A DNA stretch of 64,000 nucleotides. Origin: an uncultured Gammaproteobacteria bacterium. GTDB taxonomy: Bacteria; Pseudomonadota; Gammaproteobacteria; SZUA-140. The notes under the pieces are model-generated. The model made no database searches and was not told the DNA's origin. It saw only the letters and a program-made list of their open reading frames with translations. Positions 10,887-27,600 of this stretch are shown here, piece after piece; position 1 is the stretch's first letter, and every line of letters starts with the position of its first letter. The translations under genes and the position numbers were made by a program. The stretch is taken from NCBI GenBank assembly GCA_947258425.1, contig CAMYIG010000001.1:866-64865 (forward strand). Reading direction: 5' to 3'.

Positions 10887-11537
10887 ATGATTAAGGCGCT
10901 TTTTCCCTCACAAGTTGTCACCGTCACGGCAACGCCTGCCATGTGGGATGGCAAACTCTACCCCGAAGAGGCCGCTTTCATCCAGAAAGCGGTCATTAAA
11001 CGGAGACGCGAATTCACTGCTGGTAGACTATGTGCAAAAGCGGCGTTAAAAGCATTGGGGGTCACCGGCTTTCCAGTGCTGTCAGGGGGAGAGCGTGAAC
11101 CACTCTGGCCACCCGGCATCACCGGTAGCATCTCCCATTGCGATGACTATTGCGGAGTCGCACTGGCGCGTCAAGCAACGCTCACAAGCATTGGGCTAGA
11201 CATTGAAACCATTAGACCGTTAGACGACGACCTCGAAGCGATGATCTGCACACCGCAGGAAATAACACGCGCTAACCTATCTCCACCACCCTCAGGCAGC
11301 AATTGGCAAAAATTTATATTCAGTGCCAAAGAGTCTGTCTATAAATCACTGTTTCCAGTCACGCGAATTTACCTGGATTTTCAAGACCTCGACATAACCT
11401 TCGACAGTGACAGGTTGCAATTTTCAGCCACTCTGCTCACCCAGCTTCCAACAGAATATAACCTGCCAGACACCCTGACTGGCCACTTCAGGTACAACGA
11501 AAGTCACATCTTTACCGGAATTTCACTATCCCAATAA
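10887..11537 (+). CDS. 4'-phosphopantetheinyl transferase (EntD/Sfp type)
   Basis: WPPGITGSISHC, GLDIE and FSAKESVYKS motifs. Converges on the end of the NRPS operon (2 nt gap). Confidence 0.85.
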   Translation: MIKALFPSQVVTVTATPAMWDGKLYPEEAAFIQKAVIKRRREFTAGRLCAKAALKALGVTGFPVLSGGEREPLWPPGITGSISHCDDYCGVALARQATLTSIGLDIETIRPLDDDLEAMICTPQEITRANLSPPPSGSNWQKFIFSAKESVYKSLFPVTRIYLDFQDLDITFDSDRLQFSATLLTQLPTEYNLPDTLTGHFRYNESHIFTGISLSQ

Positions 11538-12169: not shown

Positions 12170-13009
12170 TTAGTCTCTATTTAATTCGCGCGCATAAGCT
12201 TGCGCCATCCAGCCACTAATAGTCTCAATTAACTTTTCTTTATCTTTTCTCAGGATATAGGTGTGGTCTGATTCCGGAAAATAATTAACCTGTAGCTGGT
12301 CATTAAAATTCACGGCGCTGAACATATCCTTAAATTGTCCGGCATAATTATAGTCCTCATGGCCGCCACTGTAGACATACAACAGGTTTACTTTGCGCTC
12401 AACCAACTCGCGCAACTCTGCCTCGGTCTGTTGCTTTGGGGGTAATACCCAGAAGTAATCATCCTGACCTGGTCCATCGTCGACACCATCCCCTGAGGGT
12501 GAAATTAGACGTTTAATTCGGTTAAACCATCCACTCAACGAAAACAGACGGGCGCCATAGCGGCGCATCAGAAATGCAGGGGTACGATATGCGTAGCCGT
12601 CAAGAAAAATGGCACCGACCACTCGAGGGTCAATCACAGCCCCCTTATGCGCATTGGCAGCGCCGGTACATAACCCAAACAGGATGAACTTTTTGACGCC
12701 GTATTTACTCGTAAAGAAATCCATTGCAGCCTGAATATCACCAATGATCTGTTCTTCATAAGCACGCGTATCTTTATGCTTCTGGCTATCACCAATCCCA
12801 GATAGATCGAACCGAAAGGATCGCACACCCTGCACTGCTAAACGACGGGCTAATTCAACATGTAACCTAAAGGGGCCGACTCGATGGAGTAAGCCTGCAT
12901 TGAGCATAATAACGGCAGGCAACGTATCGTTAGCGACGGCCTCATCCACTTCGGTCGCAATGCCAACGAGGTCTTTATCCTGCCCAAAAGTAAATACGCG
13001 CTCCATCAC
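12170..13009 (-). CDS. Alpha/beta-hydrolase fold protein with a cysteine nucleophile elbow (GLCTG)
   Basis: AVIMLNAG, FDLSGIGDS, elbow FILFGLCTGAANA, and candidate acid/His residues (GGHED, ESDHTY). Start overlaps the upstream gene stop (ATGA). Candidate exosortase A-associated hydrolase family member. Confidence 0.7.
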   Translation of the reverse strand: MMERVFTFGQDKDLVGIATEVDEAVANDTLPAVIMLNAGLLHRVGPFRLHVELARRLAVQGVRSFRFDLSGIGDSQKHKDTRAYEEQIIGDIQAAMDFFTSKYGVKKFILFGLCTGAANAHKGAVIDPRVVGAIFLDGYAYRTPAFLMRRYGARLFSLSGWFNRIKRLISPSGDGVDDGPGQDDYFWVLPPKQQTEAELRELVERKVNLLYVYSGGHEDYNYAGQFKDMFSAVNFNDQLQVNYFPESDHTYILRKDKEKLIETISGWMAQAYARELNRD

Positions 13010-13788
13010 TTAGCACCCTCCGAAAGCATCATCACAATATCCTGCAATAATGTACTGAGTAGTAGTGCTGATTCGAGTTCTGATAACGCATCCCAATTGC
13101 CAGCGTCATCAATCACGCGGTATTCGACATCGGCACTCTGTAAACAATCGTAAAGCGCTTGATACTCGTCTTTAGCATCAGAACCTACTATAAATACCCG
13201 CTTTGCTTTCGCTAAAAAATCTTTTTTCAGATCTAATGCTTCAATCTCAGAACACATTTCCTCAGAAAATGAAAAACCCAACAGTTCATTTTCGCCTTCG
13301 CCCTGCCGAGGTACGCTAAAACGATCAGGGTCAGCCAACATCTGCTGATGCATAGACTTTTGTGACGCGATGTAGTCTCGTCCACTGACCACGGGATCCC
13401 AGAGCACGAGCTCTTCAATATTCAAAGACTCTATTGAGGACGCAATCACAGCCCCCAGGCGCAACCCCACTAATGACACTCGCGTATTGCCCGACAGGCT
13501 CTTTAACTCTTCCACCGCCATCGAGACATCTTCGCAGCTTTGTGTCAGACGCCACTCTTCTGACGAGCCAGATGAATCACCCGTTCCATAGTAATCAAAT
13601 CGAAGCACATGAAAACCGGCCTTCGCCAGCAGGTCGGCCAGGCGATTAAACATTTTAAATGACCGCATGTATTCCTGGCCGAATGGATAGCAAAGCACAA
13701 CACTCGTATCTCGTAAGTCACGAGATCTTGGCGGGTGATAGATGCCAAACAGCTGCTTATTGGAAGCGCCAAAAAAGAATGGATTCAT
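13006..13788 (-). CDS. Alpha/beta-hydrolase fold protein with Ser replaced by Arg at the elbow (GLRLG)
   Basis: VVLCYPFGQE, FDYYGTGDSSG, elbow VSLVGLRLGAVIA. No obvious C-terminal catalytic His. Candidate second member of the exosortase A-associated hydrolase pair. Confidence 0.65.
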   Translation of the reverse strand: MNPFFFGASNKQLFGIYHPPRSRDLRDTSVVLCYPFGQEYMRSFKMFNRLADLLAKAGFHVLRFDYYGTGDSSGSSEEWRLTQSCEDVSMAVEELKSLSGNTRVSLVGLRLGAVIASSIESLNIEELVLWDPVVSGRDYIASQKSMHQQMLADPDRFSVPRQGEGENELLGFSFSEEMCSEIEALDLKKDFLAKAKRVFIVGSDAKDEYQALYDCLQSADVEYRVIDDAGNWDALSELESALLLSTLLQDIVMMLSEGAK

Positions 13789-13929: not shown

Positions 13930-16900
13930 CTATTTATTGAGCAACCTATTTTTAATTTTATTAAAAAAACCGGGAGATGCCGCAGCTTTTCGCTCAACGT
14001 TCGCTGACGAATCGACCGATCGTTGTTGTTGCCCCCCTGTGTCCTGTATATCAGGCTTACTGTCCACATCAGGAAGCGAATGCGTTGCCGCAATGGCTCC
14101 CAGCGACTCCATCAATAAAACCCTTGGTGAAATCACAACCGCGGTCTCTTTCCGAATGCGTTCAATCACCTTCATCGACAACAATGAGTGCCCACCCAGA
14201 TCAAAAAAATTATCGTGCACACTCACTCGTTCAATACCCAGTGCTTCACACCACACGGTAGCAAGGTATTTTTCTGTCCCTGTTTCAGGGGAGACATACT
14301 CATCATTTTCATAACTATCACCAAAGGGCGCTGGTAAACGTTTCCGATCTAATTTACCGTTCGGTGTCACCGGAAAACCGTCCATTTCAACGATGTGCTG
14401 AGGCACCATATATTCGGGTAACAGGGCACGCAAGTGCGTCCTTATTTCTGTCACTGTGGCGCCTTCGCCTCGCTTATAAATAAGATAGGCCACCAGGCGA
14501 TGATCACCAGGACGATTTTCCCAGACGTTCACTACAGCTCGCTCAATGGCATCATGTTCGCTGAGCGCAGACTCAATCTCACCCAGCTCTATTCTAAAGC
14601 CTCGCACCTTTACCTGATTATCAATACGTCGCATGTACTCAACATTACCATCATCGTGATAGAACGCGAGGTCACCTGTGCGATAGAGTCGACTATTTTC
14701 ATCAAATGGATTTGGAACAAAACGCTCTGCCGTCAATTCTGGGCGATTCAGATAATCGCGCGCAAGGCCAGCGCCACCAATATAAATCTCACCCGGGACA
14801 CCAACAGGCACAGGAAGGAGATGCTCATCAAGCAGATAAATCTGCGTGTTTTCGATCGGTCGACCGATCAATACTGTTGCCTCATCCGCATCACGTTTCA
14901 CTTGATAACGCATCGACCATACTGTCGTTTCTGTCGGGCCATAGAGATTCCATAACTCATCGCATTTTTCAACAAGTTGGCTTGCCAGTTCACGCGGCAT
15001 TGCTTCACCACCGCATAATACCTTCAGGCCTGATGTGCCCTGCCAATCTGATTCCAGTAGTAAACGCCAGGTAATCGGGGTTGCCTGCATAACAGTGATA
15101 TTTTCACTGGCGATAAGCGCCAGTAGACGGGTGCCATCAGAAGCCGCATCACGACTTGCGATGACCGTTGTAGCACCGGTCGTCAGTGGCAAATAGAGTT
15201 CAAGTACTGCAATATCAAAAGAGATAGTGGTCACAGCAAGCAGACGATCAACTTCTGTCAAACCTGGCGCACGCCGCATCGCACAAAGAAAGTTGACCAC
15301 GGCACGGTGCGGCAGCGTCACTCCCTTGGGCTTTCCGGTTGAACCGGATGTATAAATCACGTAAGCAAGATCATCAGATTGACCTTGCTTTAGCGGGTTT
15401 CGATCATCTTCTGCAGCAATCTTCGACCAGTCACTATCGATAAAGACGGTGCGCCCCGCATAACCCGTCAGACGTTCTTTTAACGCCGCCTGAATCACCA
15501 CTAACGGGGCCTGACTATCGCTCAACATATATGCCAGACGTTCTGTTGGATACGCAGGATCAAGCGGCACGTAAGCGCCCCCTGCTTTCAAAATGCCCAA
15601 CAACCCCACCATCATATCCAGTGAGCGCTCAACACATATGCCGATTAGTTGGCCGGGCTCGACACCTGCTTTAATTAAATAATGCGCTAGCTGGTTTGCT
15701 CGCTTATTTAGTTCGGCATAACTTAAATGCTTATCCTCAAAAACGCATGCGGATTTATCGGGAAAACGTTCAACTTGCGCCTCGAAGAGCTCATGCAGCT
15801 TGCTTTCAGCAGGAAACACTACGTTTGTGTTGTTCCACTCATTAATAATAAGTGACCTCTGCTCATCATCAAGTAACGACAGTGTTGCCAATTTTGCATC
15901 AGGTTGCTCAACAACCCGCATGAGCAGCACCTCAAACAGTTTAACCAAACGTTCAATGGTGTGTGCCTCGAATATATCAGCATTATATGCTAGTGCACCT
16001 GAAATTCCATCCGCGCTATCAGACAACATTAAATCAAGGTCAAAATGAGCAGTACCTCTTTCAAATTGATATTCACTCACTTCCACGCCAGACAAAGGAA
16101 AGTTATCGCACAAGGTTTCATTATGAAGCATAAACATCACCTGAAACATTGAGGTATGATTCAATGCTCGATGATGAGGAATCTTCTCCAGAATACTTTC
16201 GAACGGAAGATCCTGATGCGAAAAACAATCGACAGTAGACTCAGCAACATGCTCGACAATATCTCTAAACGTTGAGTCTGATGAAAACTCTGTACGCATC
16301 ACCAGATTATTAGAAAAATCCCCGAACATACTATCTAACTCTGGTCGGCTGCGGACCGTCGGTGACATACCCGTTAAAATATCTTCCTGGTTAGTATAGC
16401 GATACAGCAGACACTGGAATGCAGATAACAGCGACATAAATAAAGTCGAACCTAACGTTCCGCTTAATATTTTAAGTTGCTGGGAAAGCGTCTTCGGCAA
16501 TAAAAACCGATGGGTCCTACCCTTAAATGACATCACTCTTGGCCGCGGATGATCAGTCGGTAGATCAAGCACCGTGTTCGCATCCTGTAGATAGGCTTTC
16601 CAGTACTCCAGCTGGTTATTCACCTCATTAGACGCCAGCCAGTACTTTTCCCATAATGCAAAGTCACGGTACTGCGCAATGAAATTATCACCAGCCCCAT
16701 CGCCTACAGGGTTAGAGCCATCCGTTTTATGCGCGTTATAAGTAGTACTTATCTCGTTAACAAGTAACCGTACAGAAAGACCATCCATTGCGAAATGATT
16801 CGTTGTCATGATGAACACATGCTCATCTTCCGCCAACTGAATAACCAACACCCGTAAGTTAATATCATTGGTAAGATCAAACGGCGTACTAATTTCAGCA

Positions 16901-17325
16901 TTCACCGTTTCGAGCAGTTGACGTTCTTGCGCCTCAGAGGAGATAGCCTTCAAATCATCAACGACCATGCTAAACAGCGTCGATGGCAACAACTTCTGAT
17001 AAAGTTCATCCTCGCCCTCTAAACAGGCAGTTCGTAACACTTCATGACGTTGTACTACCTGCTGAAGACTTTTCTCGAGAATTGTAAGATCTAACTCACC
17101 CTTGAGTCGCACTATAAAAGATTCATTATAAGCAGAGCTTGCAGGATCCATCTGATAGATAAACCAGAAACGTCGTTGCGCTGATGACAAAGGCACCATT
17201 ACATCTTCAGCAACACGTGGCAGCGGTAATTGTTTCAATCCAATCTCGATGTCATCCAGCATTACGTCAAATAATTCGAGCTGATCTGAAGAGAGCGCAT
17301 CCAGCGCTTGATATACATCCTTCAT
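13930..17325 (-). CDS. NRPS3: C-A(Gly-like)-T, no TE/R/terminal C domain
   Basis: - C domain about 15886-17208: LSSAQRRFWF, NHFAMDGLS.
- A domain about 14326-15828: LAYVIYTSGSTGKPKGV, NLYGPTETT, YRTGDL, PNGKLDRK.
- T domain about 14086-14298: FFDLGGHSLL.
- Then a 51 aa tail.
- Hand-derived code DILQLGLVW(K).
- The ATG overlaps the NRPS2 stop (ATGA). Confidence 0.92.
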   Translation of the reverse strand: MKDVYQALDALSSDQLELFDVMLDDIEIGLKQLPLPRVAEDVMVPLSSAQRRFWFIYQMDPASSAYNESFIVRLKGELDLTILEKSLQQVVQRHEVLRTACLEGEDELYQKLLPSTLFSMVVDDLKAISSEAQERQLLETVNAEISTPFDLTNDINLRVLVIQLAEDEHVFIMTTNHFAMDGLSVRLLVNEISTTYNAHKTDGSNPVGDGAGDNFIAQYRDFALWEKYWLASNEVNNQLEYWKAYLQDANTVLDLPTDHPRPRVMSFKGRTHRFLLPKTLSQQLKILSGTLGSTLFMSLLSAFQCLLYRYTNQEDILTGMSPTVRSRPELDSMFGDFSNNLVMRTEFSSDSTFRDIVEHVAESTVDCFSHQDLPFESILEKIPHHRALNHTSMFQVMFMLHNETLCDNFPLSGVEVSEYQFERGTAHFDLDLMLSDSADGISGALAYNADIFEAHTIERLVKLFEVLLMRVVEQPDAKLATLSLLDDEQRSLIINEWNNTNVVFPAESKLHELFEAQVERFPDKSACVFEDKHLSYAELNKRANQLAHYLIKAGVEPGQLIGICVERSLDMMVGLLGILKAGGAYVPLDPAYPTERLAYMLSDSQAPLVVIQAALKERLTGYAGRTVFIDSDWSKIAAEDDRNPLKQGQSDDLAYVIYTSGSTGKPKGVTLPHRAVVNFLCAMRRAPGLTEVDRLLAVTTISFDIAVLELYLPLTTGATTVIASRDAASDGTRLLALIASENITVMQATPITWRLLLESDWQGTSGLKVLCGGEAMPRELASQLVEKCDELWNLYGPTETTVWSMRYQVKRDADEATVLIGRPIENTQIYLLDEHLLPVPVGVPGEIYIGGAGLARDYLNRPELTAERFVPNPFDENSRLYRTGDLAFYHDDGNVEYMRRIDNQVKVRGFRIELGEIESALSEHDAIERAVVNVWENRPGDHRLVAYLIYKRGEGATVTEIRTHLRALLPEYMVPQHIVEMDGFPVTPNGKLDRKRLPAPFGDSYENDEYVSPETGTEKYLATVWCEALGIERVSVHDNFFDLGGHSLLSMKVIERIRKETAVVISPRVLLMESLGAIAATHSLPDVDSKPDIQDTGGQQQRSVDSSANVERKAAASPGFFNKIKNRLLNK

Positions 17326-20300
17326 TTCACGACTCCTTTTTGCTCAACTAAACTGCGCGCGCTCAGTTGGTCACTCACTTCCCCTTTCGACAACTGTTTA
17401 ATCCGTTCAATCAGCCCTATCACACGCGAGTTAACATCCTCTTTAATCGCTACATTATTTTCACCATTCCGATATATTGCGCCACCCAATAGTGAGTGCA
17501 CAAAATAATGCCGCTCTTCAACATCAAACAACGCTCTAACCTTGTCAAAGTTTGCACCACCAATCTGACAAACAGCCAAATCGTGCTCACGCGCAGATTC
17601 ATCAATAAGGTGTGCGATGATCCCTGTTTCGAGTTTAGCCAGATAAGTAGAATACTTACCATAAGATGGCGCAACGGCACCAAGATCAGTGACAAAAAAT
17701 AGTGAAAATGCAGCTTCATCATAGATAGGAGTATTAACATACGGGACATGAATCGCGCGACTGATCTGCGCATCCTTTGTTAACGTGACCAAACGATGTT
17801 CAATGGGATGATAATAATATGTGCCCGCAGGAATGCCTTCGATTCTTCCTGGTTTAACATGCAGATAAACCTGCGTAGCGTAAAGCCCACCAGGGGAGGA
17901 ATAAAGATACTTTGGTTTACCATCCACCTCTATCTGATAAAAACATGACAGAAAATCACTAAACTGATCAAAAGGGATACACTCCAGTGAAAAACGTCGA
18001 TGACTAAAACGGTTCGCATATTTTTTCCTGAACGCTTCATCATCCACTGGTTTTTTGAGTTGTAAAAACTCTTTGCCTTCATCATTTTTTCGTATACCGG
18101 GCTGCGAATTCTTAAATGCCTCTCGCTCCGCGGGGTCGCGTAACTGCTGATATGAGGCAATCAGTGCTTTGACGCCCGAAAGTTCGCCTTCATCCTCGAC
18201 CGTTTTTTCCTTGTTGTCCTGCGCGCTATTGCTACGACAATAATCAGCAATGGCATTGACACTCTGAAGACGAAATATCTCATCCATACGCGGCCGAAAA
18301 CCAAACATCTTCTCCAGTTGATTACCAATCTTCACCATATCAAGCGAATTGGCACCCATTGATATCAGGTTCGCTTCATTCGACAGGTTATCCATTGATA
18401 ACAGCTCACAGATCATCGCATTCAACTGCGTAACAATCTCAGAATTATTAGCGGAGAGTGCGCTCTCTGAAGGACTGTCCTGCGGCTCCGGAAGTGATTT
18501 TCGATCCACTTTTCCGTTACGTGTCAGTGGCAGCTCATCCAGCGTTATAAACATGGCAGGCACCATGTAGTCTGGAAGTCTGCTAGCGAGATGTTCACGC
18601 AATTTATTTTCATCGATGGCATATCCCGGCGCCTTAACGAGATAAGCCAGCAGTCGCTGTTTTCCCGTCTGCGCAACCGTTACAACAGCGCTTATCACTG
18701 ACTCATGCTGTTGCAGTGCAGCCTCTACTTCACCACACTCAATCCGCTGCCCCTGAATCTTTATCTGAAAATCGGTACGGCCGACAAATTGAATATTGCC
18801 ATCGGGGAGGTAACGTCCAAGATCGCCAGTACGGTAAATCCGTTCACCAGTCTCCGGATGTTTTACAAATTTTTCAGCGGTTTTCTGTTCGTCCTGCCAG
18901 TACCCCATCGCAACGCCGATGCCGGCGACACACATCTCACCAGCCACCCAGTCAGGACACGGCGCAAGCGCCTCATCAAGAATATAATAGCGAGTATTCG
19001 CGATCGGCTTTCCGTATGGGATGCTTTTCCACGTGGGGTCAATCTGCTCAACGGGATACCAGATATTCCAGAGTGTCGTCTCCGTCGGCCCACCCACACT
19101 CACCAGTTGCGCACCTGTTTCTTTTTTAAGCCGCGCTGGCAACCCCAGTGGAATCCAGTCCCCCCCCAGAAATGCAGTCCGTAGACTATCGGGCGCGGTA
19201 CCGGGGTGACTCTCTACGTAGCACAGCAGCATATCCATCATTGCCGGTACAGAATTCCAGATGGTGGGCCTAAACTTCTGCATCATATCCACCCAATGAG
19301 CCGGGTCTCGACGCTCTTCTGGATCGGGCATCACGATTGAGCCGCCAGCACCCAGCATGCCAAACATGTCATAAATCGACATGTCATGATGCAGTGCAGT
19401 GACCGCTAATACACGGTCATCCGAACCCACATTAAAACAGCGGTTGGTTTCAACGATGGCATTCACCACGCCTCGATGGTTTAACATCACCCCTTTCGGT
19501 GTTCCGGTCGAACCAGAGGTATAGATGACATAAGCAAGATCATCTGGGGTCTGCAAATGAGCTAATGGCCCATCATCATATTCAGCGATATCATCGCTAT
19601 CCACACATAGCAGGGTTAAACCTTCAGGCCAGTTAATTTTATCAACCAACCACGACTGCGTTAATACTAGTTCAACGCCACTATTTGCTAACAACTTGCA
19701 TAAGCGCTCGCTCGGCTGCAAGGCATCCATTGGCGCATAGGCAGCACCCGACTGCAGCACACCATAGGCCGCAACCGCTTGCTCCCATCCTTTATCCATT
19801 ACAATCGCGACCAGCTTATTCGGCATGGCGTTCAGTTCACGTAAGCGTCTTCCCCAGCGGTTTGCTAACCCCAATAACTCTCTATAATTTAATGTTCGTT
19901 GAGTGGTAATCACGGCATCACTATCACCGGCTGTTTCAGCATGCGCAATAAACAGGTCTTGCAGCAGCCCTTGTGGCACATCGCGCTGATTATCATTGAC
20001 CTGTGCTCGACGTATTTTCTGCGACTCAGGCAGTAATCTCGTCGTAATCTCAAGCCAGCTCGCCTGCCATGCAGATTGATCAGCGGCTAGCCACTCCAGT
20101 AGCTGAATATAGGCATGTCCCATATCCTCCTGCAGCCCATCCGGGAAAAGCTCGCTGACATAGTCCCAGTCAACACCTAAGACACCCTTATATTCATAAA
20201 TATGATTATCAAGCCAGACCTGCGGCGTCTGATTAACGGCAAAAGTGACATTACCAATCAATCTTGCCGCATTAACGGTATACGCACTCGTGCCATCGGG

Positions 20301-21503
20301 GGCCTGTGGTGCACCGGTAAACACCACCGGTTTCAGACTCTCAGAACCACTCTTACCCTGCGTTGAAAGCTCTCTCAAAATATCTACGCCAGTAAAATAG
20401 TTATGATCCAGGTCATTCCATAACTGCTGCTGCACCACTTTCGCCTCATCGAGAAAATGGGCCTTGTCACCAATATCGATATCCAGCAGGCTAAATGAAG
20501 CGGCCTCACCGACAATGTTGTTGACCTGAGGGTCGAGTGGAAAACGATTAAACTGAGGGATATTCAGACAGAAATTTCGACTTTGACTCCACATCGCAAT
20601 CACATAAGCGTATGCCGTTAGCAAAACCACAATGGGGGTGACACCACTTTGATTGCAGTGCTGTTTAATACTGTTCCAGCTAGTTGCGCCCAGTTTAAGG
20701 CCTAGCCGGGTAAAGCGTCCCTCGTCAACTTCCTGAGGTGTTTTGGCAAGCGGCAGATCTGGTGCTGCAGACATGCGATCAATGCGTTGCTTCCAGTAAT
20801 CGGCATCTGCTTTAAATTTACTTGATTTTTTTAACGCGCGCTCAGCAAATACATAATCTCTAAATGTCAGATTAAGCGGGGGCAATGGCTCATCAGGACG
20901 ATGATAAAGCTGCGCCCATTCGGTGAAAATCACCGTCAAACTCCAGCCATCTACAATCAGCGCATCGAAACCGATATGCAGCCGTAACAGTCCATCTCTC
21001 AATTGTGCCGCAGTAATGGTAAACAGTGGCCACTGGTCTGAAGGTAGCACCTGATGTGAAATATTGTATCGCAGCTCCGCCAACTTCTTCTCGCGCGCAC
21101 CTTCATCGTGCTGCGTAAGGTCGACATAATCTATTTTATAGTCGGGTGTCTCCTCTAAAATCCGCTGATCACCATCGCGACTGATCACAACCCGCATCAT
21201 TTCATGCCGCACTATAAGCTTACAAAACGCCTCATTTAAACGCGCATAGTCAAGTTCATCTTCAATTTCATGATAAGCATAGCCCGCGACTTTACCCATC
21301 TCAAATGCGCCACTGCGTCCAATCCAGTACGCCTGCTGAAGTTCAGTCAACGGAAAAGGATCATAACGCTGGGCAGGGTTCGCCGTGATTTTATCAGATG
21401 CGATGTCAATCTTTTCAGCCGCCTGCTTCTGCGCAAGCTTCTTGATTAATAAAGCTCGCTTTTCAGGAGTAAGCCCTTCTAGCCGTTTTTTAAGGTCTGT
21501 CAT
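17322..21503 (-). CDS. NRPS2: Cy-A(Cys-like)-T-Ox (heterocyclisation plus FMN-type oxidase, thiazole-forming architecture)
   Basis: - Cy domain about 20034-21362: FPLTELQQAYWIGR, and DALIVDGWS (DxxxxD in place of HHxxxDG).
- A domain about 18489-19976: LAYVIYTSGSTGTPKGV, HHDMSIYD, IWNSVPAMM, LGGDWIP, VGGPTETT.
- T domain about 18234-18446: ISMGANSLD.
- C-terminal nitroreductase/SagB-like Ox domain about 17469-18056: YSSPGGLYATQVYLHV...CQIGG. Confidence 0.9.
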   Translation of the reverse strand: MTDLKKRLEGLTPEKRALLIKKLAQKQAAEKIDIASDKITANPAQRYDPFPLTELQQAYWIGRSGAFEMGKVAGYAYHEIEDELDYARLNEAFCKLIVRHEMMRVVISRDGDQRILEETPDYKIDYVDLTQHDEGAREKKLAELRYNISHQVLPSDQWPLFTITAAQLRDGLLRLHIGFDALIVDGWSLTVIFTEWAQLYHRPDEPLPPLNLTFRDYVFAERALKKSSKFKADADYWKQRIDRMSAAPDLPLAKTPQEVDEGRFTRLGLKLGATSWNSIKQHCNQSGVTPIVVLLTAYAYVIAMWSQSRNFCLNIPQFNRFPLDPQVNNIVGEAASFSLLDIDIGDKAHFLDEAKVVQQQLWNDLDHNYFTGVDILRELSTQGKSGSESLKPVVFTGAPQAPDGTSAYTVNAARLIGNVTFAVNQTPQVWLDNHIYEYKGVLGVDWDYVSELFPDGLQEDMGHAYIQLLEWLAADQSAWQASWLEITTRLLPESQKIRRAQVNDNQRDVPQGLLQDLFIAHAETAGDSDAVITTQRTLNYRELLGLANRWGRRLRELNAMPNKLVAIVMDKGWEQAVAAYGVLQSGAAYAPMDALQPSERLCKLLANSGVELVLTQSWLVDKINWPEGLTLLCVDSDDIAEYDDGPLAHLQTPDDLAYVIYTSGSTGTPKGVMLNHRGVVNAIVETNRCFNVGSDDRVLAVTALHHDMSIYDMFGMLGAGGSIVMPDPEERRDPAHWVDMMQKFRPTIWNSVPAMMDMLLCYVESHPGTAPDSLRTAFLGGDWIPLGLPARLKKETGAQLVSVGGPTETTLWNIWYPVEQIDPTWKSIPYGKPIANTRYYILDEALAPCPDWVAGEMCVAGIGVAMGYWQDEQKTAEKFVKHPETGERIYRTGDLGRYLPDGNIQFVGRTDFQIKIQGQRIECGEVEAALQQHESVISAVVTVAQTGKQRLLAYLVKAPGYAIDENKLREHLASRLPDYMVPAMFITLDELPLTRNGKVDRKSLPEPQDSPSESALSANNSEIVTQLNAMICELLSMDNLSNEANLISMGANSLDMVKIGNQLEKMFGFRPRMDEIFRLQSVNAIADYCRSNSAQDNKEKTVEDEGELSGVKALIASYQQLRDPAEREAFKNSQPGIRKNDEGKEFLQLKKPVDDEAFRKKYANRFSHRRFSLECIPFDQFSDFLSCFYQIEVDGKPKYLYSSPGGLYATQVYLHVKPGRIEGIPAGTYYYHPIEHRLVTLTKDAQISRAIHVPYVNTPIYDEAAFSLFFVTDLGAVAPSYGKYSTYLAKLETGIIAHLIDESAREHDLAVCQIGGANFDKVRALFDVEERHYFVHSLLGGAIYRNGENNVAIKEDVNSRVIGLIERIKQLSKGEVSDQLSARSLVEQKGVVK

Positions 21504-21641: not shown

Positions 21642-24600
21642 TCATTCGTCTTCAAGCTCACCCAATAGCGCAAGCAACTCATCTTCGTTTACATTCTCCA
21701 GCATCATCTGTTCAATCTTGCTGGAAAAATCGACCAATCGAGGCGAAAGAAAGATCGCTTGAAGTGGAATATCAATCGCAAAGTCCTGTCGGATGCGTGT
21801 AATCAACTGCACCGCGATCAACGAATGCCCGCCAATCTCGAAGAAATTATCGTACAACCCCACCTGCTTGAGCCCCAGTAACGCCTGTAAAATAGTAGCG
21901 ACCTGAATCTCAACTTCGCTAGCAGGTGCGACATATTCTGCCTGAGTATCAATATTCCCTTGCTCCGGCACTGGGAGTTTTTTACGATTAATTTTTCCAT
22001 TCGGTAATAATGGCAATCCCGCTAGCACGACGTAATTTACGGGCACCATAAATTCAGGTAAATGTTGTCCCAGATAGTTGCGTAGCGCATTGATATTGAT
22101 GTCAGTGCCTGTGTCTGGCACCACATACGCAACAAGCTTTTTATTCCCGGGCTCATCTTCTCGCAGTAGCACAAGCGCGTCATTCACTTCGGTATTCTCT
22201 AACAGAAGCTTCTCGATCTCACCCAGCTCAATCCGATAGCCATGTAGCTTGACCTGATGGTCGATGCGCCCCATGAACTCCAGCCGCCCATCACGACCCA
22301 TGCAGACCAGGTCGCCCGTTCGATACATACGGTCATTTAAATCACCACTCACACTGTTTTTTACAAACTTTTCAGCAGTGAGCTCGGGGCGATTCAGATA
22401 ACCCCGTACCACGCCGTCACCGGCAATTACCAGTTCACCCGGCACACCCAGCGGCTGAAGTTGCATATTGTTATCCAGCACATAGGTCTGTGTATTCGCA
22501 ATCGGGGAGCCCAATGGAATATCTGCGTCTGCCTCATGTAAATGATACGTGGTTGACCAGATCGTCGTCTCAGTCGGCCCGTACATATTCGTCACTTGAC
22601 CTTTCACCAATGAACGCAGCTTTACTGCCAACTGACTCGAAAAGGCTTCACCGCCCACCATCATATGAGACAAGCATCCCAGTGCGTGATGCATCTGCTG
22701 GTCTGATGCCAGCATATTGGCCATCGTTGGCGTACATTGAAAATGCGTGACGTTGTGTCGCTCGATAAGTGCAGCGATGGAATAATCCTTATCCGCCCCA
22801 TCAGACTGCGGCGGGTTAGCCGCCTCCTTCACCTGGCTTAGATAATGGAGGTGGGCCAGTACTTTTTCGGTCTCGATGCCAAAATCGATCAGACAACCGA
22901 TCTCATCCACCCCTATTTCCTTGAGTTGATCTGCACGTTCAACGCATCGTTCAACATTCCCAAAGAGCCCGCTGTGGTTATAATAGCGATCAAACGCGAA
23001 GGCCAGCAGGCTATCTCTATCCTCATCAGAAATATTATTAAAAAACTCATCCATGGTCTGCTCTGTACCCTCGGATACCTGCTTCCACGCCGGGCTATGC
23101 CACGCGGCCGCTTTCACCAGAGAAACTGCACTTTCCAGATAGTCCATCATCGGCTGCTGTGCAACATCACGCACCTGCGCCTCATCATCGCCGATGAAGG
23201 TGTGTAGCATTAATGTGACTTGCCCATCACCTGCATGACCGGCCTCTTTCCAGGCGCTACGATAGAGCCGAATATTCTCTGCCACCTTTTCAATATCCTG
23301 TCCGAGCAGGTGCGTCAGCACATGTGCACCAATTGATCCAGCCTGTCGGAAGGTGTCAGGATTCACCGCAACCGTTACCCAAATTGGTAACTTTTCCTGA
23401 ATAGGTCTAGGGTAGGTGCGGACTTCAACATCGCCTTTCGGCCCCGCAAACGTGACAGCCTCACCTTTCCATAATTGCTGGATAGTCTCAACGGAATCAA
23501 ACATGATCTCTTTTGCGCGCGCATGATTCTCAGGCTTGATCACAAAATCATTCGGCTGCCAGCCGGGCGCAATCGAAAGCCCCGCACGGCCATTGGAAAG
23601 GTTATCCACCACCGACCACTCTTCTGCGATGCGAATAGGGCTATGCAGTGGCACCACACAACTGCCCGCACGAATACCGATGTTTTGCGTAGTGGCCGCC
23701 AGTGCGGCACCGATGACTGAGGGGTTAGGGTACAGTCCGCCAAAGGCACCGAAATGTCGCTCAGGTGTCCATAGCGCTTCGAAGCCATTTTTGTCGGCGT
23801 ATTTAGCGCTTTCGAGCAGTAACTTATACTTATCTGCCTCGCGAGATGCCTCGTCTTTTACAAAATTCCAGTAAAAAAGACTAAAGGCAATCGGCTGAGC
23901 GGGGTATCGTGTCGCCACTTCCCCAGCCTTCAGGTCATCACCGGCGTAGAGCACCAGTTTAAACCCTCGACAGAGACTCCAGAAAATCTCAAGCACGGAG
24001 ATATCAAACGATATACTGGTCACAGCCAACCACACACCCGGGGAATCATGCGCAATGCGCTCATCCATGCCTGCGAAGAAATTCACCACATTACGGTGTT
24101 CGACCATCACCCCTTTGGGACGCCCGGTCGAGCCCGAAGTATATATCACATAAGCCAGACTCGATGACGCGCACGGGATTTCAAGATTATTATCGCTCTC
24201 GACATCGATTCGACTTCGCTCAAGATCAACCTGCAACAACTTTTCACCGGGCAGATAATTTGCGTAATCAGACTGGGTAACTACCAACGCCAGCTCTGCG
24301 TCATCGGCCATATAAACCAAACGATCTTTGGGATAAGTGGGATCCAGTGGCACATAGGCCGCGCCTGTTTTCCACGTTGCCAATAGCGCGATCACCATAT
24401 CAAAGGAACGATCCAACATCACACCGACCAGATCATCTACACCCACGCCATGTTTTACCAGATAGTGCGCCAGCTGATTTGCGCGAGCATTCAACTCATG
24501 ATAACTGAGGCTGTCATTGTGAAATGCCAGCGCGGATGTATCCGGTGTAGACACTACTTGTTGTTCAAACAGCTGAAATACACATCGATTTTCAGGGTAT

Positions 24601-27600
24601 GCAGTGGCAGTACCCGTGGCTATTTTTAATATGGCCTGTTGCTCTTCTCTCGGTAAAATCGGCACACTCGCTACCGGCGTATTGAGATCTTCAACCATGA
24701 CCTCCAGCACTTTTAGATAGTGCGCCAGCATACTTTCCATACGCGCTTGCGAGAAAAGGTCGGTGCAATATTCAAGTACCGCCTCCAGTCCAGAGGGACG
24801 CTCCCACATATAAAGGGTCATGTCATATTTTGAAGTACCACTATGAGTGTCCAGCTGTATCGTCCGCATGCCGGGAAGATTCATCACCGATTCATGCTCA
24901 AGCGCATCAAAAATAAACATCACCTGAAAAACCGGTGCATAACGTAAATCACGCTCTGGATTGAGCGCCTCAACCAATTTATCGAATGGCAATCCCTGAT
25001 GCGCAAAATCTGCAATGGTCGTCTTACGCACGCGGGCGATCAACTCTCTCAGTGAAACATCGCCTGATAGATCACAACATAAAGGGAGTGAGTTCATAAA
25101 CAGTCCGAGCATCGCTTCGGTCTCGAGCGGCTCGCGGTTCGCGACCGCAGTACCGACCACAAAATTCTCCTGTGATGAGTAGCGGTGGAGCAGTAATTGA
25201 TAGGCCGCCAACAGCAGCATAAATAGACTGGAACGCTCCTGTTGCGCAATGATATTAAGTCGCTGATGTAGCGCAGACGGTATCTTCAGGGTCACAGAAC
25301 TGCCATTAAATTGCTGCACGGACGAGCGTGGGAAATCAGTTGGTAACTCCAGTACCGGCGGCATCTGCTTTAACCGAGGCAGCCAGTAATCAATCTCCGC
25401 CTGAAGACGATCATCGGCCATATAAGTACTTTGCCAGGCAGTATAGTCAGCGTAATCGGCTGAGAGCTGAGGTAATTGCGGTTCAACGCCACTCACCATC
25501 GCACCATATACCTGCTCGAGCTCGCTTGCCAGCAGACGCACTGACCAGCCGTCAAACACGATGTGATGGATCACAAACGTCATCACATATTTTGATGGTG
25601 CCAGTTTGATAATATTGCAGCGCCACAACGGTCCCTGTTCGATATCGAACAGAGTGTGCGCCTCATTTGTGATCAACTTATCTATTTCCGCCTGCGGATC
25701 TGACGCCTGACTCAAGTCATGCATGAATACCGGCAAGTCGACCTGACCCGCTATCACCTGTGTCGGCGCGCCCCCTTTCACTGAAAACGTGGTACGCATT
25801 GAAGCGTGGCGCTTAACGATTACCGCCATCGCTTGTTTAAAGAGCTCGGGATCAAAATCACCATCGATCTTAAATGCATAAGGGATGTTATAGAGTGCGC
25901 CCACCTGCTCCATTTGCTCAAAAAACCAGATGCGACTCTGCATAAATGAAAGCGGGATATCGCCAGCATGTTCTTTTTTGTGTAGCACTGGTTGTGTCAC
26001 GGCCACATCCGTTACTGCCGATGACGAGATATATTTCGCAAGTTCAGCAATGGTGGGGGAGTTAAAGAGTGCAGTAATAGAAAGCTGCACACCGAACTCA
26101 CGCCGCAACCGGGCGACCATCTGCGCGGCCAGCAGGGAGTGGCCACCGGCATGAAAAAAATTAGCGTTCACACCTACTCTCTCTACACCCAAAAGGGCCT
26201 GCCATATCGCTGCGATCCTGGTTTCTGTATCGCCTGTCGGTGCAACATAATCACGATCTTCGAACAGGTCCGCGTACCGAGGATGGGGTAGCGCCTTTTT
26301 ATCCACCTTGCCATTCGCCGTTAAAGGAATCTCCGCAACAAAGACAAAATGCTGTGGAACCATATGGACAGGCAGACCATTGGCGACATAATCACGTAGT
26401 GCATCGACCTGTAGGCTGTCAGACTTTTTAACCACATACGCCACCAGGCGCTGGTCACCCACACCCAATTCAATGACATTCAATGCAACCTGCTTAACCT
26501 CGGGGTACGCAATGAGAAGCGATTCGATCTCACCAAGTTCTATTCTAAAGCCGCGCAATTGCACCTGGTCGTCAATTCGCCCTAGGTATTCCAGTTCATT
26601 ATTGGAGAGGCGGCGCGCTAAATCGCCAGTACGATACAGTCGGATGACAGTGCCGTTTTCTAACGTGTGGTTAATAAAACGTTCTGCGGTCAAGTCAGGC
26701 CGATTCAAATAGCCCTTCGATAGACCATCGCCGGCAACATACAGCTCCCCTTTCTGCCCATCGATAACAGGCTTCATCGCGTCATCAAAAAGATAGAGTT
26801 TCAGGTCTGGAATGGCCCGGCCAATCAGACTCCCCTTCGGGTGATCCACATCATCACGAGAAATGGGACGATACGTCACGTGCACGGTTGTTTCGGTGAT
26901 ACCGTACATATTAATCAATTGCGGGGCGTTGTCTCCGTGACGGGAAATCCACGGTTTTAAAGCGGCCAGGTTGAGCGCTTCACCGCCGAAGATCACATAA
27001 CGTAACGCCAGTGTATCTGCTGTGTGTCGCTCTTCATCCACCAGCTGTAGCTGCTGGAATGCTGAGGGGGTTTGATTCAGGACGGTGACCCCTTGCGATA
27101 TCAGCAGGGTATAAAACAATTCCGGGGTGCGTGCTGTTTCCGCTGACACAATCACCAGGCTGCCACCGTAGCTCAGCGCGCCCCAAATCTCCCACACAGA
27201 AAAATCAAAGGCATATGAGTGAAACAGGGTCCAGACATCATCCACACCAAAATCAAACCAGTGGTTAGTGGAATCAAAAAGCCGGGATACATTTTTATGA
27301 GTTACCTGCACTCCTTTGGGTGCCCCGGTAGAGCCCGAGGTATAGATGACATAGGCAAGGTGCTCGTCAGTCACCGCTACAGCAGGATTTTCTACTGTCG
27401 ATGAACCCTTCTCCATCGCATCAATCAATAAAATTTTAGCCGAACAGGCGGGTAAATTTTCGACCAGCGTCTGCTGCGTTACCAGTACAGCAGGTTTGGC
27501 ATCATTCAGGGTGTAGGCAATACGGGAAGCGGGGTAATTCGGGTCAACCGGCACATAGGCAGCGCCTGCCTTTAAAATACCCAAAATACCGATCACTGTA

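What the first reader, a model, noticed from the sequence alone, without database searches (positions are those of the whole stretch)
17322..21503. Cy-A-T-Ox thiazole-type module with a divergent Cys-like specificity code
**What is seen**
- A heterocyclisation domain: FPLTELQQAYWIGR, and DALIVDG replacing HHxxxDG.
- An A domain with Cys-type hallmarks: HHDMSIYD, IWNSVPA, GGDWIP.
- A carrier domain with GANSLD.
- A C-terminal nitroreductase/SagB-like oxidase placed after the T domain.

The extracted code DMYNFGVLW keeps the Y239/N278/W331 hallmarks of Cys-activating domains (canonical DLYNLSLIW). It differs at 236, 299, 301 (Ser to Gly), 322 and 330. The substrate could therefore be Cys or a related residue.

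**Context**
Together with the MOx-Gly module, the architecture resembles parts of myxobacterial Mta/Mel systems, but here it is in a different host context and has no PKS parts.
Basis: partly seen in the sequence, partly recalled or inferred. Interest (0 to 1): 0.5.

Follow-up and report, generated by a model that had tools for sequence, protein, structure and literature searches.

The report
Azole-forming NRPS module, probably oxazole
This gene encodes an intact peptide-assembly module that builds and then oxidises a five-membered ring, but its substrate pocket matches threonine-loading relatives rather than cysteine-loading ones, so the ring is more likely a methyl-oxazole than a thiazole.

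Summary
Window 17322-21503 (minus strand) is one intact 1393-aa ORF with the order Cy-A-T-Ox. All quoted motifs are present, and the code DMYNFGVLWK was extracted correctly.

- The Cy domain aligns to EpoB-Cy (1e-90) and BmdB-Cy2 and keeps DxxxxDxxS and the Asn, gating Phe, Thr and Asp residues.
- The Ox domain aligns to the bacillamide oxidase BmdC (3e-30) and keeps the FMN-binding and Tyr residues.

The "thiazole/Cys-like" reading is probably wrong.
- Y239, N278 and W331 mark the whole lineage of A domains in Cy modules. FmoA3, which loads alpha-methylserine, has them too.
- In a published code table, the characterised Cys codes of this lineage have L/F236 and, with one exception, S301. All Thr/Ser-cyclising codes have G301.
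- The query is 9/10 identical to LeuA (Thr-type, leupyrrin) and 5/10 to canonical Cys.
- It differs at five residues that contact Cys-AMP in PchE.

The module belongs to an uncharacterised, widespread clade that, wherever the upstream gene could be read (seven relatives), follows an MtaG-type MOx-glycine module. Here the cluster sits inside an XrtA/PEP-CTERM exopolysaccharide locus. Substrate and product remain inferred.

The parts
17322..21503 (-). Whole gene: stand-alone NRPS elongation module Cy-A-T-Ox, 1393 aa
   Evidence: ORF list and translation. Pfam domains. 94% identical to P0001 and 45-56% identical to many Cy-A-T-Ox proteins of about 1400 aa.
21366..21503 (-). N-terminal 46 aa (LTPEKRALLIKKL...), conserved in orthologues; possibly a docking helix
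   Evidence: Conserved in alignment A1. No Pfam hit even at E=1, so the docking role is inference only.
20073..21365 (-). [not shown]
   Evidence: Sequence search of solved structures: EpoB-Cy 5t7z 1e-90, BmdB-Cy2 5t3e 7e-84, HMWP2/Irp2, PchE and FmoA3. Residue roles come from PMC9547227 and PMC8807600. Residue positions.
20496..20510 (-). Clade-specific floor-loop variant GEAAS, where canonical Cy domains have GDFTS (HMWP2-Cy2 D1770-F-T1772)
   Evidence: Alignments. Class statistics: G[EQ]x[AG]S never accompanies an S301 (Cys-type) code (0/253 and 0/60 modules). Position 335 is Ala in 91% of variant-class modules and Thr in 97% of Cys-class modules.
18489..19946 (-). Adenylation domain, aa 520-1005. 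Core motifs A3 YTSGSTGTPKG, A4 HHDMSIYD, A5 GGPTETTLWN, A7 YRTGD, A8 GRTDFQIKIQGQRIE and A10 NGKVDRK are intact. Code: D707 M708 Y711 N750 F778 G780 V803 L811 W812 K998
   Evidence: Pfam and TIGR01733 (2e-122). Code. In the A-core search the best single-domain hit is FmoA3 at 319 bits, against BmdB 283 and PchE 249.
18240..18425 (-). Carrier (T/PCP) domain, aa 1027-1088, with phosphopantetheine attachment Ser1053 in GANSLD
   Evidence: Pfam PP-binding 1.5e-9. S1053 is invariant in 16 orthologues.
18018..18239 (-). T-Ox linker, aa 1089-1162, with the conserved DPxEREAFKxSQPGIR stretch; no RRE-like domain
   Evidence: Conservation in alignment A1. BmdC has a long linker that wraps around the partner protomer; any analogy is inferred.
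17478..18017 (-). FMN-dependent oxidase (Ox) domain, aa 1163-1342. Key residues: R1165-x-S1167-x-R1169, N1257, Y1281, G1315
   Evidence: Sequence search: BmdC oxidase 7ly5 3.4e-30. These residues align to BmdC R145/S147/R149 (FMN phosphate and N1/O2), N236, catalytic Y260 and G294, as described in PMC8795117. Apart from R1165, they are invariant or more than 90% conserved in orthologues.
21642..27815 (-). Upstream NRPS (2057 aa): A(Thr, DFWNIGMVHK)-T-C-A(Gly, DIL-MGMIWK, split by a luciferase-like monooxygenase at aa 1311-1663)-T. It supplies the donor for the Cy domain.
   Evidence: Pfam and TIGR04020 (2e-145). Codes and insertion point between A4 and A5.
13930..17325 (-). Downstream NRPS (1131 aa): C-A(Gly, DILQLGLVWK)-T with no TE domain. 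Its start codon overlaps the stop codon of the Cy-A-T-Ox gene (ATGA).
12170..13788 (-). Two alpha/beta-hydrolase genes (13006-13788 and 12170-13009) related to 'exosortase A system-associated hydrolase 2 and 1'. They are the likely release or transfer enzymes.
   Evidence: NCBIfam TIGR03101 1e-29 and TIGR03100 6e-23, both below the curated cut-offs. The same pair follows the NRPS in L001/L003, L005 and L007.
10887..11537 (+). Sfp-type phosphopantetheinyl transferase
   Evidence: Pfam 4PPT_N 1e-27 and ACPS 9e-13. A PPTase is also adjacent in L001/L003.
27883..28617 (-). SAM-dependent methyltransferase directly upstream of the NRPS operon; role not established
   Evidence: Pfam Methyltransf_25/11. 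It was not found in the related loci.

Best explanation
The gene encodes a functional NRPS elongation module that forms an azoline ring and oxidises it to an azole.

**Proposed steps**
1. The A domain activates a beta-hydroxy amino acid, most likely L-threonine, and loads it on Ser1053 of the T domain. The substrate is inferred.
2. The Cy domain takes the acyl chain from the second carrier domain of the upstream synthetase. That chain is Thr-Gly, its alpha-hydroxyglycyl form made by the embedded monooxygenase, or the glyoxylyl remnant left if the carbinolamide collapses. The Cy domain forms the amide bond and then cyclodehydrates it to a 5-methyloxazoline, using the Asn314/Thr396/Asp432 set.
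3. The C-terminal FMN oxidase, with Tyr1281 as base, removes two hydrogens to give a 5-methyloxazole-4-carbonyl thioester.
4. The downstream C-A(Gly)-T protein adds glycine, and the two hydrolase-like proteins release or transfer the product.

**Shown versus inferred**
- Shown: the domain order, the intact catalytic and cofactor residues, the code, and the conserved gene neighbourhood.
- Inferred: the identity of the amino acid, the nature of the donor, and the product.
For: **Domains and catalytic residues**

**Substrate class**
1. In the curated code tables of PMC12283262, the characterised Cys codes of this lineage have L or F at 236 and S at 301. The one A301 exception is AjuD. Every Thr/Ser code from a cyclising module has G301: PmsG, VibF, BasA, FbsF, LeuA and DkxG. 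The query matches LeuA (DMFNFGVLWK) at 9/10 positions, DkxG at 7/10 and canonical Cys at 5/10.
2. The PchE cryo-EM structure with Cys-AMP names F741, L743, S813, A841 and I846 (positions 234, 236, 301, 325, 330) as pocket residues. The query has H, M, G, P and L at these positions.
3. Across 33 variant-code and 244 Cys-code modules, the class-discriminating positions are 234, 301, 325, 328 and 332, plus one Cy floor-loop residue.
4. Both classes occur side by side inside single multi-heterocycle synthetases (P0241, P0246). The difference is therefore not lineage drift.
5. The A core is closer to FmoA3, which forms an oxazoline from alpha-methylserine (319 bits), than to the Cys enzymes BmdB (283) and PchE (249).

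**Context**
In the seven relatives whose upstream gene could be read, that gene is [F or C]-A(Gly, MOx)-T.
Against: - No biochemical datum exists for any member of this clade.
- The LeuA and DkxG assignments rest on product structures listed in one compilation. That compilation contains at least one doubtful entry: AjuD is listed as Ox-Cys although ajudazol carries an oxazole (ajudazol is cited as a precedent for Ser-derived oxazole modules in the icumazole preprint).
- Y239 and N278 are shared with Cys codes.
- Several orthologues have L236 (DLYNFGTLWK).
- Module 1 of the same assembly line uses the ordinary Thr code DFWNIGMVHK. Thr would therefore be recognised by two unrelated pockets. This is normal for Cy modules such as VibF, but it is not proof.
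- I could not obtain the LeuA, DkxG or VibF sequences to place them in a tree with the query.
Confidence: 0.6

Rival explanations
1. The A domain still loads L-cysteine despite the divergent code. The module then makes a thiazoline and oxidises it to a thiazole, as in EpoB, MtaC/D, BlmIII/IV and BmdB/C.
For: - The code keeps D235, Y239, N278, W331 and K517 of DLYNLSLIWK.
- The closest solved Cy and Ox structures come from thiazole pathways.
- The A core is about 49% identical to Irp2/HMWP2 fragments.
- Some variant-code modules in cyanobacteria keep the canonical GDFTS floor loop (10 of 41).
Against: - None of the characterised Cys codes of this lineage has G301 or M236.
- Five of the PchE Cys-pocket residues are changed.
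- The nearest characterised codes are Thr-type.
- The retained residues are also present in FmoA3, which does not load Cys.
- The Cys class and the variant class coexist within single proteins.
Confidence: 0.25
2. The A domain loads a less common building block that a Cy domain can still cyclise. Candidates are L-serine, 4-hydroxythreonine, allo-threonine or 2,3-diaminopropionate. The product would then be an unsubstituted or otherwise substituted oxazole, or an imidazoline.
For: - The LeuA entry itself is ambiguous ('beta-OH-Thr/Thr').
- FbsF takes Ser or Thr.
- The Cy floor loop (GEAAS) and the Pro replacing the HMWP2 T1753 position are unusual and could reflect an unusual substrate.
Against: - The window holds no gene for making a non-proteinogenic amino acid next to the NRPS.
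- DkxG, listed as plain Thr, shares GVLWK with the query.
Confidence: 0.12
3. The module, or one of its domains, is inactive or skipped, and the divergent residues reflect decay.
For: - The floor-loop Asp, Phe and Thr, which are highly conserved in other Cy domains, are replaced.
- No exact copy of the protein exists in the public collections.
Against: - The ORF is intact.
- All A core motifs, the carrier serine, the Cy catalytic residues and the Ox FMN/Tyr residues are present.
- The same substitutions are conserved across phyla at 45-56% identity, which indicates selection.
- The gene is translationally coupled to the next gene.
Confidence: 0.03

Closest known systems
BmdB module 2 plus BmdC (bacillamide synthetase and its oxidase; PDB 7ly4/7ly7/5t3e)
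   Same: Cy-A-T followed by an FMN nitroreductase-fold oxidase acting on the carrier-bound azoline. Cy+A scores 686 bits and Ox 3e-30. The FMN-binding and Tyr residues are the same.
   Different: BmdC is a separate protein with an RRE-like domain; here the Ox domain is fused after T and has no RRE-like domain. BmdB loads Cys (DLYNLSLIWK, floor loop GDFTS); the query has DMYNFGVLWK and GEAAS.
FmoA3 (JBIR-34/35; Cy-A-T making 4-methyloxazoline; PDB 6lta)
   Same: It is the best solved match over Cy+A (721 bits) and over the A core (319 bits). It forms an oxazoline and shares Y239, N278, W331, P325 and T328.
   Different: FmoA3 has no Ox domain. It loads alpha-methylserine with the code DAYNVSSCWK (S301) and has a GDYTN floor loop.
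LeuA (leupyrrin) and DkxG (DKxanthene) heterocyclising modules of myxobacteria
   Same: These are the nearest characterised specificity codes: DMFNFGVLWK (9/10) and DFYWMGVLWK (7/10). Both are listed as Thr-type for oxazoline rings.
   Different: Both belong to PKS-NRPS hybrids with a pyrrole-carbonyl donor, and no Ox step is listed for either.
EpoB, MtaC/MtaD and BlmIII/IV thiazole modules
   Same: The Cy-A-(Ox)-T logic is the same. The Ox domain follows the carrier domain as in BlmIII. EpoB-Cy is the best Cy-domain hit (1e-90).
   Different: These modules load Cys (DLYN[LM]SLIWK) and lie in PKS hybrids. In EpoB the Ox domain is inserted in the A domain.
MtaG/MelG monooxygenase-glycine modules
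   Same: The upstream partner module has the luciferase-like monooxygenase inserted between A4 and A5 of a Gly-specific A domain.
   Different: In Mta/Mel this module is terminal (followed by TE) and serves to release a C-terminal amide. Here, and in the seven relatives whose upstream gene was read, it feeds a Cy module.

Membership tests
NRPS heterocyclisation (Cy) domain | DxxxxD(xxS) motif in place of HHxxxDG | tested here: met
   [not shown]
NRPS heterocyclisation (Cy) domain | Cyclodehydration residues: Asn (EpoB N335), Thr (BmdB T1196) and Asp (BmdB D1226 / PchE D480), plus the gating Phe (HMWP2 F1755 / PchE F372) | tested here: met
   N314, T396, D432 and F318 are aligned. Their roles come from PMC9547227 and PMC8807600.
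NRPS heterocyclisation (Cy) domain | Conserved floor-loop motif G-D-F-T-S (HMWP2 D1770, T1772) | tested here: not met
   The query has GEAAS. This is a clade-specific variant. The motif is conserved but has not been shown to be essential, so the query's status as a Cy domain stands.
Cys-activating A domains of Cy modules (DLYN[LM]SLIWK class) | L (or F) at 236 and S at 301. In PchE, F234, L236, S301, A325 and I330 form the Cys pocket. | tested here: not met
   The query has H234, M236, G301, P325 and L330. None of the Cys codes of this lineage in PMC12283262 Table S8 has G301 or M236.
Cys-activating A domains of Cy modules (DLYN[LM]SLIWK class) | D235, Y239, N278, W331 and K517 | tested here: met
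   All five are present, but they are also found in FmoA3, which does not load Cys. LeuA keeps all but Y239. They therefore do not discriminate.
Thr/Ser-activating A domains of Cy modules (VibF, PmsG, BasA, FbsF, LeuA, DkxG) | G at 301 with W331-K517; M or F at 236 | tested here: met
   DMYNFGVLWK matches LeuA at 9/10 and DkxG at 7/10 positions.
Thr/Ser-activating A domains of Cy modules (VibF, PmsG, BasA, FbsF, LeuA, DkxG) | Demonstrated activation of Thr/Ser; grouping with these enzymes in a whole-domain tree | not testable with these tools
The sequences of VibF, LeuA and DkxG could not be retrieved (searches did not return them).
NRPS FMN-dependent oxidase (Ox) domain (BmdC / EpoB / BlmIII type) | Nitroreductase fold with the RxSxR FMN-phosphate motif, Asn and Gly contacts to the isoalloxazine ring, and a conserved active-site Tyr | tested here: met
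   Pfam Nitroreductase and BmdC 3.4e-30. R1165/S1167/R1169, N1257, Y1281 and G1315 align to BmdC R145/S147/R149, N236, Y260 and G294.
Peptidyl carrier protein | Conserved Ser for phosphopantetheine in the GxxS motif; a PPTase available | tested here: met
   Ser1053 in GANSLD. An Sfp-type PPTase lies at 10887-11537.
Myxothiazol/melithiazol-type (Mta/Mel) system | PKS-NRPS hybrid with bis-thiazole modules and a terminal MOx-Gly-TE module that releases an amide | tested here: not met
   The window has no PKS domains and no TE domain, and the MOx-Gly module is internal. Only the MOx insertion site and the Ox-after-T layout are shared.
XrtA/PEP-CTERM exosortase system (genomic context) | Exosortase A, PrsK/PrsR/PrsT, and the chain-length determinant, autokinase, export protein, outer-membrane protein and ATPase of the system | tested here: met
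   NCBIfam equivalog hits above the curated cut-offs: TIGR03109, TIGR02916, TIGR02915, TIGR02917, TIGR03007, TIGR03018, TIGR03027, TIGR03016, TIGR03015 and TIGR03013.

The most novel reading that the evidence does not exclude
The Cy-A-T-Ox protein and its obligatory MOx-glycine partner may form a conserved two-gene unit with an unusual donor.

- The N-terminal cap varies between relatives: formyl, a C-domain-delivered acyl group, or Thr. It could be a sacrificial group.
- Alpha-hydroxylation of the glycine, followed by collapse of the carbinolamide, would leave a glyoxylyl thioester.
- The remodelled Cy domain (Pro at the HMWP2 T1753 position, floor loop GEAAS) would accept this thioester and give a 2-formyl-5-methyloxazole-4-carbonyl unit.

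In this genome the assembly line stands where XrtA/PEP-CTERM loci, as I recall from the NCBIfam/TIGRFAM family set, usually carry an acyl-CoA ligase, an ACP and a decarboxylase next to hydrolases 1 and 2. Its small reactive azole peptide might therefore be transferred by the hydrolase pair onto the exopolysaccharide or onto an exosortase substrate rather than secreted as a free metabolite.
Probability: 0.2. Interest if true: 0.75.

Novelty: new variant of a known kind. Interest (0 to 1): 0.45.

Why it matters
**For annotation**
Y239/N278/W331 should not be read as a Cys signature. A rule based on S301 versus G301 (plus positions 234, 236 and 325) separates thiazoline-forming from oxazoline-forming modules in the characterised set. 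Under this rule the product prediction for this cluster changes from a thiazole peptide to a methyl-oxazole peptide.

**For biology**
The module defines an uncharacterised clade found in Proteobacteria, Acidobacteriota, Gemmatimonadota and Cyanobacteria. In every relative whose upstream gene could be read, the clade is coupled to an MtaG-type monooxygenase-glycine module used mid-line. That arrangement has no characterised precedent in the literature I could search.

**For the XrtA system**
The cluster is embedded in an XrtA/PEP-CTERM locus and ends with the system's two 'hydrolase' homologues. This offers a tractable handle on what the XrtA-associated acyl-activating cassette does, which as far as I know has not been established.

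Tried and rejected
1. **Exact-match look-ups** of the protein and of the window's Fe-SOD found nothing. The source organism stays unidentified. The best named relative is 51% identical (Alphaproteobacteria MAG).
2. **A search with only the A-domain core** returned short fragments and no named Thr-type enzymes.
3. **A profile search with variant-clade Cy-A-T sequences**, meant to fish out LeuA or DkxG, was swamped by multi-module proteins. It did show both code classes inside single proteins.
4. **Literature searches** for the code strings found only one compilation. Searches for MOx plus Cy, or for exosortase plus NRPS, found no description of this cluster family.
5. **My first claim of perfect covariation** between the A code and the Cy floor loop was rejected. 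Per-module analysis of genome loci found 10 of 41 variant-code modules with the canonical GDFTS. Only the reverse implication holds.
6. **A TubC_N-type docking domain** at the N-terminus was not supported by Pfam.
7. **A raw BLAST alignment to GrsA** gave D at position 278. I rejected it as a gap-placement artefact on the basis of the BmdB/FmoA3 alignments.
It was verified only at positions 235-331; K517 was taken from the NGK(V/I)DRK motif.


Full report
**1. What is at the coordinates**

Window 17322-21503 holds a single minus-strand ORF of 1393 aa. Pfam finds these domains:
- Condensation, aa 51-477
- AMP-binding, aa 520-869
- AMP-binding_C, aa 925-998
- PP-binding, aa 1027-1088
- Nitroreductase, aa 1163-1332

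The stop codon overlaps the start of the next NRPS gene (ATGA at 17322-17325). The protein has the same length as its 94%-identical relative P0001. It has dozens of full-length relatives of about 1400 aa at 45-56% identity with the same four domains.

**2.

*Cy domain.*
- A sequence search of solved structures puts aa 35-474 on EpoB-Cy (1e-90), BmdB-Cy2 (7e-84), Irp2/HMWP2, PchE and FmoA3.
- The residues implicated in catalysis are also present: Asn314 (EpoB N335), the gating Phe318 (HMWP2 F1755 / PchE F372), Thr396 (BmdB T1196) and Asp432 (BmdB D1226 / PchE D480).

*Ox domain.*
- The C-terminal region matches the bacillamide oxidase BmdC at 3.4e-30.
- Read against the BmdC structure paper, the query keeps the FMN-phosphate residues R-x-S-x-R (R1165, S1167, R1169), Asn1257 (BmdC N236), the proposed catalytic base Tyr1281 (Y260) and Gly1315 (G294).

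Neither refutation condition is met.

**3. The specificity code and what it means**

I re-derived the code as DMYNFGVLWK. Five results argue against that.

- *The three residues are not specific to Cys.* FmoA3 loads alpha-methylserine and makes an oxazoline. It is the best solved match to the query over Cy+A (721 bits, against 686 for BmdB and 532 for PchE) and over the A core (319, 283 and 249 bits). Its code, read off that alignment, is DAYNVSSCWK. The three residues therefore mark the lineage of A domains that sit in Cy modules.
- *Characterised codes separate at positions 236 and 301.* The tables of PMC12283262 list the characterised Cys codes of this lineage. All have L or F at 236 and S at 301. 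The one A301 exception is AjuD, and ajudazol, its product, carries an oxazole. All characterised Thr/Ser codes from cyclising modules have G301:
  - PmsG: DMFCAGLIWK
  - VibF: DMFSAGLIWK
  - BasA: DMFVAGLIWK
  - FbsF: DMFCNGIIWK
  - LeuA: DMFNFGVLWK
  - DkxG: DFYWMGVLWK

  The query is 9/10 identical to LeuA, 7/10 to DkxG and 5/10 to DLYNLSLIWK.
- *The differences fall on the Cys pocket.* The PchE cryo-EM structure with bound Cys-AMP names F741, D742, L743, S813, G814, A841, T842, I846, W847 and K1325 as the pocket. These are positions 234, 235, 236, 301, 302, 325, 326, 330, 331 and 517. The query differs at 234 (H), 236 (M), 301 (G), 325 (P) and 330 (L).
- *The class difference is sharp.* I compared 33 variant-code modules with 244 Cys-code modules. 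The positions conserved within each class and different between them are 234, 301, 325, 328, 332, one further A-domain site, and one Cy floor-loop residue.
- *Both classes occur in the same proteins.* P0241 and P0246 each contain a variant-code module and a Cys-code module. This is what one expects if they load different amino acids, not if one class is a drifted copy of the other.

I conclude that the substrate is most likely a beta-hydroxy amino acid, with Thr the best candidate. The ring would then be a 5-methyloxazoline oxidised to a 5-methyloxazole. This conclusion rests on comparison, not on an assay. I give it about 0.6, against 0.25 for Cys.

**4. A clade-specific Cy active site**

- Canonical Cy domains carry G-D-F-T-S in the floor loop. 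By its offset from the DxxxxD motif, this corresponds to HMWP2-Cy2 D1770 and T1772.
- The query and its orthologues have G-E-A-A-S.
- They also have Pro at the position of HMWP2 T1753, a residue said to flank the donor entrance.
- G[EQ]x[AG]S never accompanies an S301 code (0/253 modules in proteins, 0/60 in genome loci).
- The converse is not absolute. In proteins, 31 of 33 variant-code modules have the variant loop. In genome loci, 10 of 41 variant-code modules, all cyanobacterial, keep GDFTS.
- The loop change is therefore an added feature of part of the class. The GEAAS form is largely confined to the relatives that follow a monooxygenase-glycine module, and it may reflect the donor rather than the acceptor. 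That last point is inference.

**5. Surroundings**

*The assembly line in the window*
- The upstream synthetase (21642-27815) is A(Thr, DFWNIGMVHK)-T-C-A(Gly)-T. A luciferase-like monooxygenase (TIGR04020, 2e-145) splits the Gly A domain between A4 and A5. This is the insertion site described for MtaG and MelG.
- The downstream synthetase (13930-17325) is C-A(Gly, DILQLGLVWK)-T without a TE domain.
- Two alpha/beta-hydrolase genes follow. They are related to 'exosortase A system-associated hydrolase 2 and 1', below the curated cut-offs.
- An Sfp-type PPTase lies nearby.

*Relatives*
- In relatives from an Alphaproteobacteria MAG, Bryobacterales, Gemmatimonadota, Xenococcus and metagenomes, the gene upstream of the Cy-A-T-Ox protein is always [formylation or C domain]-A(Gly, MOx)-T.
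- The gene downstream is either C-A(Gly)-T plus the hydrolase pair, or C-T-TE.
- The N-terminal cap therefore varies, while the MOx-Gly plus variant Cy-A-T-Ox core is constant.

*The alpha-hydroxyglycine intermediate*
The literature gives both possible fates. It is cleaved to an amide plus a glyoxylyl thioester in Mta/Mel. It is retained mid-chain in solanimycin B. I cannot tell which applies here.

**6. Wider context**

The window carries a complete XrtA/PEP-CTERM system:
- exosortase A
- PrsK, PrsR and PrsT
- the chain-length determinant, the autokinase and the export protein
- the TIGR03016 outer-membrane protein, the TIGR03015 ATPase and the EpsB_2 transferase

The NRPS cluster lies inside this system. 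The same association is seen at the P0015/L001 locus and the P0004 locus. I found no paper describing it.

**7. Comparison with known systems, and verdict**

- The module works like the azole modules of the bacillamide, epothilone, myxothiazol and bleomycin pathways. It passes the membership tests for a Cy domain, a carrier domain and an NRPS Ox domain.
- It fails the test for the Cys-activating class and meets the code-level test for the Thr/Ser-cyclising class.
- It is not part of an Mta/Mel-type system: there is no PKS and no terminal MOx-TE.
- I rate it a new variant of a known kind, with moderate interest (0.45).
- The most novel reading that the evidence does not exclude is a glyoxylyl-fed oxazole unit whose product serves the exosortase/EPS system. 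I give that reading about 0.2.

Noticed in passing
window 8334-9332 and 29255-63927: The window holds a complete XrtA/PEP-CTERM exosortase system: ATPase, FemAB-like GNAT, glycosyltransferases, deacetylases, Wzy, flippase, outer-membrane protein, autokinase, chain-length determinant, export protein, PrsT, XrtA-EpsI, PrsR, PrsK and EpsB_2. The NRPS cluster is embedded in it. From my recollection of the NCBIfam/TIGRFAM family set, this is the position where such loci usually carry an acyl-CoA ligase, an ACP and a decarboxylase beside hydrolases 1 and 2.
   Followed up: partly
window 12170-13788 (minus strand): Neither hydrolase-like protein has a GxSxG serine motif. The hydrolase-1 homologue has GLCTG, with a Cys where a nucleophile is expected. 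The hydrolase-2 homologue has GLRLG and no obvious nucleophile. They may act as a transacylase plus a non-catalytic partner rather than as plain thioesterases.
   Followed up: no
window 21642-27815 (aa 1311-1663 of the upstream NRPS); loci L001/L003, L004, L005, L016, L083, L084: An MtaG-type monooxygenase insertion (between A4 and A5) in a Gly A domain is used mid-assembly-line. In relatives the module begins with a formylation domain or a C domain instead of the A(Thr)-T-C found here. The N-terminal cap is thus variable while the MOx-Gly/Cy-A-T-Ox core is fixed.
   Followed up: partly
proteins P0254, P0256, P0267, P0268, P0277, P0337, P0345: There is a third class of Cy-module codes with G301 and H331 (DLYSMGLIH, DLYNLGLIH) paired with floor loops GDF[SAT][SG]. 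It occurs in the first Cy modules of multi-heterocycle synthetases from Nocardia, Bradyrhizobium, Salmonella and Streptomyces. Its substrate was not looked into.
   Followed up: no
locus L025 (Tychonema sp. LEGE 06208) and about 20 other cyanobacterial loci: The DMYNFGVLWK code without an Ox domain is common in cyanobacteria (Microcoleus, Tychonema, Nostoc, Symploca). In L025 the synthetase carries a fatty-acyl-AMP-ligase-like start and lies next to a TonB-dependent receptor, which suggests a lipopeptide siderophore with an azoline.
   Followed up: partly
PMC12283262, Table S8: AjuD is listed as 'Ox-Cys' with the code DLYNLALVWK, although ajudazol contains an oxazole. The compilation used as the reference therefore has at least one doubtful substrate label. 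This exception is also the only 'Cys' code of the lineage without S301.
   Followed up: no
window 27883-28617 (minus strand) and 11540-12142 (minus strand): A SAM methyltransferase heads the NRPS operon, and a 200-aa protein with an N-terminal hydrophobic stretch and no significant family match lies between the hydrolases and the PPTase. Neither was found in the related loci, and their roles are unknown.
   Followed up: no
window 30822-32942 (+), 33019-34614 (+) and 46295-48130 (-): Three further proteins sit between or within the EPS genes and were not examined: a 706-aa protein of Big_9/cadherin-like repeats, a 531-aa ORF with no family match, and a 611-aa ORF with only a short APH-like kinase segment.
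   Followed up: no
whole window: The source organism is not represented in the searched collections. There is no exact protein match. The nearest NRPS relative (94%) comes only from a Logan assembly of SRR15505513, and the best GTDB genome hit is 51% identical. GC content is 39-55%, with persistently negative GC skew on the plus strand.
   Followed up: partly
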